DNA from: Nitrospirota bacterium
Lineage (GTDB): Bacteria > Nitrospirota > UBA9217
Assembly (NCBI GenBank): GCA_963751455.1
Contig: CAVVUN010000015.1
Coordinates: 288,001 to 352,000, forward strand
Reading direction: 5' to 3'
DNA length: 64,000 bases
Both the position numbers and the translations under genes were made by a program. The notes beneath the pieces were generated by a model. It had not been told where the DNA came from, did not search any database, and worked only from the letters and a program-made list of their open reading frames with translations. Within the stretch, counting starts at the first letter, position 1, and the number at the start of each line of letters is the position of its first letter. This document shows, piece by piece, positions 43,718 through 45,139 of this stretch.

Positions 43718-44634
43718 GTAGGGCAAGGCTTCAGCCTTGCAGATTCTGTCAGGACAGAAAAGAAGAAAAGTACATGCAACCCTGAAGGGTTGCCCTACAA
43801 AAACAAAAAAGGACATGTAGGGCAAGGACTTCGACGAGACTTCGGCGTGAGCTCAGTCGAACGCTCAGTCGAGACGCTTCAGCCTTGCAGAATCAAGGCA
43901 ATGATAACTACAACGTTCAAAAAAAGGATACGTCTCAAGGGCTTTGATTATCAGGGCTGTTTTCGATATTCCTTGACTTTTTGTACGAGAAACAAGTTGC
44001 CTCATTTCAAAGACGACCTAACCGTACTTAATACCGCACGGATACTGCAAGAAACGGCAAAGACGCATGATTTCAAAATATGGACTTGTTGCTTCATGCC
44101 GGACCATGTTCATGTTTTGGTAGAGGGTGAAAGTCAAACTGCTGATTTAAAAAAATTCGTGTCCGCTTTCAAACAAAAGAGCGGTTACTGGTTTAGGCAA
44201 ATGCAAAAACAAGCAACCCTGAAGGGTTGCCCTACAAAAGATGAAATAGAAATTAATGTAGGGCAAGGATTTCGACAAGCTCAGTCGAGACGCTTCAGCC
44301 TTGCGAAATCAGCAACCTTAAAAGGTTGCCCTACAAAAGAGGGGAAAAACGTTAATGGGCAAGGCTTGAGCCTTGCGAAGATGCGGGGCGATGAGCTCTG
44401 GCAGATAAATTATTATGACCATGTTTTGAGAAGCGACGAGGCAACAGAAAAGGTCGCGCGATATATTTTGGAGAATCCCGTAAGGAAAGGACTCGTGGAG
44501 GATTTTCGTAATTATCCCTTTTCATGGTGTCAAGTTTTTGATTTTGTAGGGCAAGGCTTCAGCCTTGCAGATCATGCAACCCTGAAGGGTTGCCCTACGA
44601 AAGACGTGAAAGCAACTCTAAAGGGTTGCCCTAC
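43718..44634. repeat. Cluster of ten GTAG-family REPs around and inside the RAYT gene
   Basis: REP-A GTAGGGCAAGGCTTCAGCCTTGC at 43718, 43817 (interrupted), 44258 (interrupted), 44357 (degenerate), 44546; REP-B GCAACCCTGAAGGGTTGCCCTAC-like at 43776, 44213, 44312, 44576, 44612. Confidence 0.92.
43901..44545 (+). mobile_element. REP-associated tyrosine transposase (RAYT/TnpA-REP, Y1 HUH), no stop codon
   Basis: RIRLKGFDY, Y.LTFCT, FMPDHVHVLV (HUH), FKQKSG, LWQ..YYDHVLR, YILENPVRKGLV, YPFS. Confidence 0.92.
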
Positions 44635-45139
44635 AAAACATAAAAAGAACGAGGTCGGTTTTACGCTTATCGAGATCGTGATGACGATCGTGATCGTGAG
44701 TATCATTGCGGGTGTCTCCGGCATGATCATCGCATCCGGGGTAAGGGCTTATTCGGACGAGCAAGCCCGGAGTGATGTACATTATCAAGCCAGGCTTGCG
44801 ATGGAGAGAATGACAAGAGAAATCCGCACGATGAGGGGCAGGGCCGCTGCACCGGACGATATCCCCAATATGGCTGCAAATGCGCTGGGATTCTATGACA
44901 TCACTGGCGTGCTCGTGGAATTTGATCTTAGTGGGACCAATCTTCGGCGCCAGCAGGATGGAGGCGGATGGCAAACTCTGGCGACGAACATTGCGGGACC
45001 TCTTTTTGAATATTACGATAACGCCGGCAATCCGGGCGCCGCGCAAAACGCATTGTGGTACGTGGAAATCGGTTTAACGGCTACGCAGGGTTCTGAGTCT
45101 CTTCAAATGAACACGCGCGTGCATCCTAGGAACTTTTAA
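44606..45139 (+). CDS. Minor pilin (MshO/PilW-like), in frame with RAYT; mature Phe at 44660
   Basis: VG|FTLIEIVMTIVIVSII, ARLAMERMTREIR, VHPRN; the only local start is GTG 44606 without a clear SD. Confidence 0.85.
   Translation: MKATLKGCPTKHKKNEVGFTLIEIVMTIVIVSIIAGVSGMIIASGVRAYSDEQARSDVHYQARLAMERMTREIRTMRGRAAAPDDIPNMAANALGFYDITGVLVEFDLSGTNLRRQQDGGGWQTLATNIAGPLFEYYDNAGNPGAAQNALWYVEIGLTATQGSESLQMNTRVHPRNF

What the first reader, a model, noticed from the sequence alone, without database searches (positions are those of the whole stretch)
43901..45139. RAYT transposase fused in frame to a prepilin, occupying the cleavable leader peptide
Seen: a RAYT with complete motifs (HUH MPDHVH, WQ..YYDH, catalytic Y-I..NP) has no stop after YPFSW. 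It reads through three REPs (VGQGFSLA..ATLKGCPTK..ATLKGCPTK) into KHKKNEVG|FTLIE of the MshO-like minor pilin, mid-operon between the MshD- and MshP-like genes. Established: prepilin peptidase cuts G|F on the cytoplasmic side and discards the leader. Inference: the insertion would be self-neutralising at the protein level, giving mature pilin plus free cytoplasmic RAYT, and REP/REPIN mobility would be tied to pilus expression. I know of no described system like this.
Basis: partly seen in the sequence, partly recalled or inferred. Interest (0 to 1): 0.88.

Follow-up and report, generated by a model that had tools for sequence, protein, structure and literature searches.

The report
Transposase lodged in pilin's discarded leader
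A DNA-cutting transposase gene is fused in frame to the front of a pilus-subunit gene in seven distantly related bacterial lineages and its catalytic core is conserved there; the enzyme likely rides in the leader piece that the cell's pilin-processing protease is predicted to cut off, which would be an undescribed way for a selfish gene to sit inside a host gene without breaking it.

Summary
Confirmed and extended. Window 43901-45139 is one 412-codon frame: a REP-associated tyrosine transposase (RAYT, NF047646 above cut-off), a REP-encoded linker, then G|FTLIE and an MshO-like pilin. It is not an assembly error: six other lineages (50-56% identity where measured) have the same fusion, with linkers of 30-76 residues, all in frame. 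Fused RAYTs form one clade (SH-aLRT 100), keep HUH and Tyr, and are under purifying selection (dN 0.15-0.31, dS near or at saturation). Their pilins and host pilC genes are not one clade, so the fusion travels with, or is lost from, a recombining pilin cassette. It is rare: none of 63 other family genomes has it. The native pilin start is gone, GTG44606 scores poorly, and no internal start is conserved. Cleavage by PilD, translation through the junction and nicking activity are untested. Against: one lineage has a decayed RAYT, two fragments end without a pilin, and most genome REPIN copies are passengers of a MITE-like element. Seven literature searches found no such fusion. This scan earlier noted REP-only prepilin leaders in another genome, not a whole RAYT.

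The parts
43268..43711 (+). MshD-like minor pilin upstream (name by position and resemblance; start codon uncertain)
   Evidence: N_methyl motif; same position in relatives
43718..43798 (.). Inverted REP doublet (REPIN) upstream of the RAYT, in the place where unfused relatives have the pilin's own SD and start codon
43901..44197 (+). RAYT N-terminal core, 99 codons, HUH motif DHVH near 44102
   Evidence: same length in 4 of 4 DNA loci
44198..44395 (+). In-frame REP-derived insert inside the RAYT (66 aa; 6-70 aa in other lineages)
44396..44545 (+). RAYT C-terminal core, 50 codons: WQ, YYDH, catalytic Tyr (YILENP, 44462); no stop codon
44546..44659 (+). REP-encoded linker (38 aa, three REPs) ending in Gly -1 of the class III signal peptide; holds the candidate internal start GTG44606
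44660..45139 (+). Mature MshO-like minor pilin (FTLIE... VHPRNF), single copy in the genome
   Evidence: one homologue is named MSHA biogenesis protein MshO by its source (P0052)
45169..45867 (+). MshP-like pilin-type gene downstream (name by position and resemblance)
   Evidence: conserved position
45895..46024 (.). REP doublet of the same family, half copy of a 215-bp MITE-like element

Best explanation
A RAYT gene with its REP hairpins is fused in frame to the start of an MshO-like prepilin gene, and the fusion is likely made as one precursor that prepilin peptidase is predicted to cut at Gly|Phe, which would release a mature pilin to the membrane pool and a likely active RAYT into the cytoplasm. 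Shown: the fusion, its single RAYT clade, purifying selection, an intact cleavage motif, loss of the native pilin start. Inferred: it arose once, when a free-standing RAYT of this REP family landed in the insertion-tolerant leader and lost its stop codon by reading into its 3' REP. The pilin then came to depend on the RAYT's start and frame, and the unit persists by moving between relatives in a recombining minor-pilin cassette while being lost from others by the same route.
For: Seven in-frame lineages. Linkers 30-76 aa and inserts 6-70 aa, all in frame; the same DNA holds stops in 13 of 14 other frames tested. The DNA search, blind to frame, gave 3 of 43 loci with a pilin behind the RAYT, all in frame. 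Fused RAYTs form one clade, SH-aLRT 100. HUH and Tyr are kept in 6 of 7 lineages; the seventh record starts after HUH. RAYT core pN 0.14-0.25 against pS 0.71-0.84, and more conserved than the pilin in 6 of 6 pairs. G-1, F+1, E+5 are kept and the leader has no hydrophobic segment. PilD is present and the pilin is single copy. Unfused orthologues mostly start shortly after the mshD stop with an SD (median -5.9 kcal/mol, 23 loci); fused loci have no internal start at a shared position. Unfused leaders are long, variable and repeat-derived. Leader peptides stay in the cytoplasm, vary in length, and PPase needs no other protein (PMC10191384, passages).
Against: No expression, proteomic or biochemical data. 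The RAYT start has a weak SD in 4 of 4 loci (-0.1 to -1.8), and in 2 of 4 loci (window GTG44495, L051) a codon inside the RAYT's last helix region scores better in the crude model. The P0049 cluster has a decayed RAYT and an ATG in the linker, so the dependence can be escaped; P0018 and L080 also have a linker ATG beside an intact RAYT. P0138 and P0284 belong to the clade but end without a pilin. I found no paper on PPase cutting a leader of about 200-300 residues with a folded domain. The fusion is absent from 63 other family genomes searched.
Confidence: 0.6

Rival explanations
1. Two proteins from one frame: the pilin is made mainly from an internal start, and the RAYT is made rarely, with a pilin tail that is tolerated or cut off; the frame stays open because the RAYT has no stop of its own.
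For: In-frame ATG/GTG/TTG codons exist in the last 60 codons before Gly -1 in 4 of 4 loci; in 2 of 4 one scores better than the RAYT start. The decayed P0049 cluster has a linker ATG. RAYT starts are weak, also in 17 of 24 free-standing sisters.
Against: No internal start is conserved in position; those in the linker lie in REP hairpins (opening cost 12.7-22.2 kcal/mol, against a median of 9.8 for unfused starts) with SD no better than -4.1. A frameshift between RAYT and an internal start would give the RAYT a stop at little cost, yet 7 lineages stay in frame.
Confidence: 0.2
2. The fusion is functional as such: before, or instead of, cleavage the pilin helix anchors the RAYT at the pilus base, where it would act on single-stranded DNA taken up by the cell and promote REP insertion or exchange of the pilin cassette, including its own spread.
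For: The clade is found only in this gene where context is known (7 of 7). The RAYT is more conserved than the pilin. The pilin block is swapped between near-identical hosts (L080 against G255, 96.7% over 2.6 kb of flank). The genome has ComEC. A similar role was proposed for TnpA_REP beside lanthipeptide genes (bioRxiv 2020.03.09.984088, first half read).
Against: The cleavage motif is fully kept. Unfused operons shuffle their pilins too (G169 against G118). The lanthipeptide authors later reported no strong evidence for or against causation. Nothing ties this pilus to DNA uptake.
Confidence: 0.12
3. The RAYT is a dead passenger kept only because the pilin needs its start codon and reading frame.
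For: One lineage has decayed (P0049 cluster). Little independent REPIN spread in the genome: 22 of 39 doublets ride in a MITE-like element and 7 more share a second flank.
Against: Frame-keeping alone would not hold dN at 0.15-0.31 with saturated dS, keep the core at exactly 99+50 codons, or keep HUH and Tyr.
Confidence: 0.06
4. Assembly or base-calling artefact at a repeat-rich locus.
For: Metagenome-type assembly; no reads across the junction.
Against: The same architecture occurs in six other lineages from JGI, ENA, NCBI and Logan assemblies.
Confidence: 0.01

Closest known systems
REPtrons: RAYT / TnpA_REP with GTAG-footed REPs (PMC6006769, PMC8266576; passages read)
   Same: HUH and Y-I-x-x-N-P core, WQ motif, flanking GTAG hairpins in inverted doublets, dispersed REP copies; in-frame REP inserts between HUH and Tyr, as described for subclass 2.4.
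   Different: No stop codon; C-terminus joined to a host prepilin. Lies inside a host gene, while RAYTs are described as extragenic and vertically inherited (bioRxiv 2021.07.10.451892, passages); here its hosts' pilC genes are not one clade.
Type IV prepilins with a class III signal peptide (PMC10191384, passages read)
   Same: Hydrophilic leader ending in Gly, then a hydrophobic helix with Glu +5; complete pilus operon and PilD in the genome.
   Different: The leader is 186-296 residues and holds a whole enzyme; unfused orthologues have leaders of about 14-52 residues.
Repeat elements read in frame inside proteins (PMC3184786, passages read)
   Same: REP-derived peptides are translated in the linker and inside the RAYT.
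   Different: Here the cognate transposase itself is in the frame, not only the non-autonomous repeat.
Inteins and IStrons (recalled, not from any call)
   Same: A mobile gene sits inside a host gene and is removed after transcription or translation, so the host product survives.
   Different: No splicing domain or ribozyme was looked for or is needed; removal would be done by a host protease at its normal site.
TnpA_REP beside prochlorosin genes (bioRxiv 2020.03.09.984088, part 1 of 2 read)
   Same: RAYT-family gene physically tied to a hypervariable gene family.
   Different: Adjacent genes, not a fusion; another subclass (2.1); causal role not upheld by its authors.

Membership tests
RAYT / TnpA_REP | Family HMM above curated cut-off | tested here: met
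   NF047646 91-96 bits (cut-off 80) for 6 of 6 full-length fusions tested; IS200 model NF033573 below cut-off
RAYT / TnpA_REP | HUH motif and catalytic Tyr (Y-I-x-x-N-P), WQ motif | tested here: met
RAYT / TnpA_REP | Flanked by GTAG-footed palindromic REPs that also occur elsewhere in the genome | tested here: met
   86 copies, 39 doublets; 87 against 0 for the reversed control
RAYT / TnpA_REP | Single copy per genome | tested here: met
   tblastn finds only the locus and one distant RAYT with other REPs
RAYT / TnpA_REP | Extragenic, free-standing gene | tested here: not met
   fused to a prepilin; this is the variant feature
RAYT / TnpA_REP | Cleaves cognate REP ssDNA | not testable with these tools
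   needs an in vitro assay
TnpA_Y1 subclass 2.4 (RAYT group 4) | In-frame REP inserts between HUH and Tyr; NH[IFV]H motif; placement with reference sequences | tested here: inconclusive
   Inserts present, but the motif is DH[VLI]H, closer to the 2.5/2.7 consensus in the paper's table; no reference sequences were placed
Type IV prepilin (class III signal peptide) | Gly/Ala -1, hydrophobic helix, Glu +5 | tested here: met
   8 of 8 proteins; Kyte-Doolittle 19-residue maximum 2.7-3.5 after Gly, at most 1.03 before; PF07963 and TIGR02532 above cut-off
Type IV prepilin (class III signal peptide) | Motif at the N-terminus behind a short leader | tested here: not met
   motif at residue 253 from ATG43901
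Type IV prepilin (class III signal peptide) | Processed by prepilin peptidase | not testable with these tools
   PilD gene present; processing untested
MSHA pilus operon | Msh-specific family matches (for example MshN) | tested here: inconclusive
   T2SSF, PilM, PilN, PilO, secretin and an ATPase with MshEN found; no Msh-specific HMM matched the pilin; gene names are by position

The most novel reading that the evidence does not exclude
A transposase lineage has made the class III signal peptide its home: it is expressed as the leader of a pilin, freed by the host's prepilin peptidase, holds the pilin hostage to its own start codon and frame, and spreads across a bacterial family by riding, and perhaps catalysing, the exchange of the minor-pilin cassette. 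That would be a third route, beside self-splicing introns and inteins, by which a mobile gene cancels the damage of inserting into a host gene, and it would put a ssDNA nicking enzyme under pilus control.
Probability: 0.45. Interest if true: 0.9.

Novelty: new variant of a known kind. Interest (0 to 1): 0.82.

Why it matters
Why RAYTs persist, and how they reach new hosts, is an open question. Here a RAYT is under measurable purifying selection inside a host gene and has a visible route of spread (pilin cassette exchange), with natural intact, decayed and unfused alleles to compare. If PilD processes it, the leader of a prepilin can be a whole folded enzyme, which extends what class III signal peptides tolerate and gives a two-gene test in E. 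coli or a cell-free system. Pilin predictors that look only near the N-terminus would miss such genes.

Tried and rejected
Reads: one run with a 0.06 share was found and laid; it does not cover the junction, and no RNA holder was listed. GTDB scan by pattern gave 7 loci, none fused. Viral contigs gave 0 matches to a back-translated RAYT motif. Near-identical REPIN copies as proof of RAYT activity: rejected, because they share about 215 bp with terminal inverted repeats, which points to a MITE moved by another enzyme. G208 and G104, whose matches seemed to reach into the RAYT, are unfused. The tree used a faulty filter (10 rows) and was replaced; one search stopped on an error and was rerun. 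Vertical descent of the whole operon with the fusion: rejected by AU tests for 5 of 5 genes. RAYT as a necessary cause of pilin shuffling: rejected, since unfused operons shuffle too. Literature searches gave no RAYT-pilin fusion.

Full report
OBSERVATION. An open frame runs from 43790 to the stop at 45139; from ATG43901 it encodes 412 residues. It matches Y1_Tnp and N_methyl in Pfam and passes the curated cut-offs of NF047646 (REP-associated tyrosine transposase) and TIGR02532 (prepilin cleavage motif), but not that of the IS200 model. The anatomy is: a REP doublet (43718-43798), RAYT core part 1 (99 codons, HUH), a 198-nt REP insert, RAYT core part 2 (50 codons, WQ and catalytic Tyr), a 114-nt linker with three REPs, Gly at 44657, and the mature pilin. 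The gene lies in a complete type IV pilus operon with platform protein, four upstream pilins, PilM/N/O, secretin and an MshEN-bearing ATPase. The names mshD, mshO and mshP rest on position and on one source name (P0052). Names on homologues point to Nitrospirota.

NOT AN ARTEFACT. Reads could not be used. A protein search gave 16 hits, of which five clusters other than the window's own carry RAYT sequence and the pilin in one chain at 50-56% identity; one cluster includes OGW42425.1 of Nitrospirae bacterium GWD2_57_9. A DNA search with RAYT patterns, which does not depend on the frame, returned 43 metagenome loci; 3 have the pilin behind the RAYT (L051, L052, L080), all in frame, and none of the other 47 loci showed an MshO-like hit, though many are short. 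This makes seven lineages: window, P0002/P0017/L052, P0003/P0018, P0004/L051, P0005, P0006 (record starts after HUH) and L080. Linkers are 30-76 residues and internal inserts 6-70. In the DNA loci the seven REP-rich segments tested are stop-free in frame and hold stops in 13 of the 14 other frames.

ONE ORIGIN, UNDER SELECTION. In a tree of 139 RAYT relatives the six fused RAYTs and two fragments form one clade (SH-aLRT 100, stem 0.42; quick tree). Adding 115 short relatives brought in one more member, P0284, which stops inside the REP insert; no complete member with an ordinary stop after the core was found. Free-standing sisters are flanked by the same REPs and end at or just before the first 3' REP in 24 of 28 loci examined (4 not parsed); in 5 the stop is the TAG of the REP's GTAG. 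The fused clade reads that REP in another frame, which explains the origin of the read-through (inference). Across four DNA loci the core has exactly 99+50 codons, pN 0.14-0.25 and pS 0.71-0.84; dS is saturated in 4 of 6 pairs and dN/dS is 0.07 in the other two. The RAYT is more conserved than the pilin in 6 of 6 pairs. HUH and Tyr are intact in all six full-length lineages. Selection therefore acts on the enzyme sequence, not only on the frame.

SPREAD. The fused pilins are scattered over a tree of 110 orthologues (8 changes for 8 rows, at least 3 forced by well-supported branches), and AU tests reject their monophyly (p 7.5e-41 and 1e-133). The same holds for PilC and the three neighbouring pilins (5 of 5 genes, p 3e-5 or less; the 'mshC' set was picked by position and may mix paralogues). 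The upstream mshD-like genes of all four fused loci do fall in one clade of 8 (support 97). L080 and the unfused genome G255 are 96.7% identical over 2.6 kb of flank but carry unrelated pilin blocks. So the block is exchanged as a cassette, and the RAYT is gained or lost with it; the data cannot separate spread from an old origin with many losses. Unfused operons are shuffled too (G169 against G118), so the RAYT is not required for that. The fusion is rare: in 401 genomes of the phylum only G000 has it; 25 of 63 other family genomes gave a pilin match, and no RAYT of the fused clade was found in any of the 63.

HOW IT LIKELY WORKS. Established (PMC10191384, passages): the leader of a class III signal peptide is hydrophilic, variable in length, ends in Gly or Ala, stays in the cytoplasm and is cut by prepilin peptidase without other proteins. 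Shown here: Gly -1, Phe +1 and Glu +5 are kept in 8 of 8 fused or decayed proteins, and nothing upstream is hydrophobic enough to cross a membrane; G000 has one PilD and no second copy of this pilin; unfused leaders are about 14-52 residues and often repeat-derived, so the site tolerates insertions. Unfused genes mostly start shortly after the mshD stop with an SD (median -5.9 kcal/mol; 23 of 32 loci parsed). In fused loci a REP doublet and the RAYT stand there. GTG44606 has SD -2.7 and the highest opening cost of the four window candidates (16.9); linker starts in the other loci are no better than -4.1 and are not at shared positions. The RAYT ATG is aligned in 7 of 7 sequences but its SD is weak (-0.1 to -1.8), as in 17 of 24 free-standing sisters; in the window and L051 a codon inside the RAYT's last helix region scores better. 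These energies are crude and use G000's 16S tail throughout. Inferred: one low-abundance precursor is inserted N-in, cut at Gly|Phe, and gives pilin plus RAYT with a 30-76-residue tail. Whether that tail matters is open; the C-terminal tail modulates activity of the E. coli enzyme (PMC8266576, passages).

RESULTS AGAINST. The P0049 cluster (5 members) keeps only a decayed RAYT end and has an ATG in the linker, so the RAYT can be lost in place. P0138, P0284 and P0024 belong to the clade and show no pilin; they may be contig ends or broken fusions, and their DNA could not be fetched. Evidence for present activity is thin: the fused gene is the only one of 33 Y1_Tnp hits with this REP family nearby, and the genome has 86 such REPs in 39 doublets, but 22 doublets share the flanks of a 215-bp element with terminal inverted repeats, 7 share a second flank and 2 are at the locus. 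G092 has 57 REPs with an unfused pilin.

COMPARISON WITH WHAT IS KNOWN. It is a RAYT by HMM, motifs, REPs and copy number, but not extragenic. In-frame REP inserts inside tnpA_REP are described for subclass 2.4 (PMC6006769, passages); that study discarded a few unexpectedly long proteins as fusions or errors, and its supplement, which I did not open, may list such cases. In-frame repeats in host proteins are reviewed in PMC3184786 (passages). RAYTs are described as extragenic and vertically inherited (bioRxiv 2021.07.10.451892, passages). TnpA_REP next to lanthipeptide genes is the nearest association with a variable gene family (bioRxiv 2020.03.09.984088, part 1 of 2). The likeness to inteins and IStrons is recalled. 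Seven full-text searches (listings only) found no RAYT-pilin fusion; subscription journals are largely outside that library. This scan's notes hold one related, unchecked report of REP hairpins, without a transposase, in a prepilin leader of another genome (e1-2990246); sequence and place look-ups found nothing.

VERDICT. Real, old, selected and apparently undescribed architecture; mechanism inferred. Best explanation 0.6; internal start 0.2; membrane-anchored function 0.12; dead passenger 0.06; artefact 0.01. Interest 0.82; new variant of a known kind, with a 0.45 chance that it is a new strategy of self-neutralising insertion.

Noticed in passing
window 45895-46024; G000 C1:261745-261960 and 24 further places: An element of about 215 bp with 15-bp terminal inverted repeats carries one REP doublet and occurs in 25 copies, most 95-99% identical; the window copy is a half that ends at the REP edge.
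   Followed up: partly
L080:1-6483 against G255:C223 (L146): Two hosts 96.7% identical over 2.6 kb of pilC flank carry unrelated minor-pilin blocks, one with the RAYT fusion and one without; similarity resumes at the mshP-like gene.
   Followed up: partly
G092 (57 REPs), G178 (17), G188 (16): Relatives hold this REP family; the RAYT-like loci checked in G092 and G178 have no such REPs beside them, and G092's pilin is unfused although its PilC groups with a fused host. Could be the trace of a lost RAYT.
   Followed up: partly
P0049 cluster (5 members): Decayed RAYT C-terminus still in frame with the pilin, with an ATG inside the degenerate REP linker.
   Followed up: partly
P0138 (1093-bp contig): Closest relative of the window's RAYT; reads through the REP and ends in RIFTHL, which by hand fits a shifted frame of a GFSLI pilin start. 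May be a broken fusion; DNA not available.
   Followed up: no
unfused mshO-like leaders; window 45139-45260: Leaders of the unfused pilins are often built from short tandem-like repeats (peptides such as PQSAIRNPQS, PHSALRTPHS); the window's mshP-like leader has such repeats too.
   Followed up: partly
L060, L062, L075-L077: In 5 of 24 free-standing sister RAYTs the stop codon is the TAG of the REP's own GTAG foot; the fused clade reads that REP in another frame.
   Followed up: yes
window 33419-39442: 2007-aa RHS-repeat protein with IPT/TIG and DUF6531 domains directly upstream of pilC.
   Followed up: no
G000 C2:636807-637277: A second, free-standing RAYT (about 40% identity) preceded in frame by another REP type (peptide VAAGFSLR).
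   Followed up: partly
G000 whole genome: Two very abundant repeats (about 165 and 87 copies of 16-mers) look like CRISPR repeats (label from recall).
   Followed up: no
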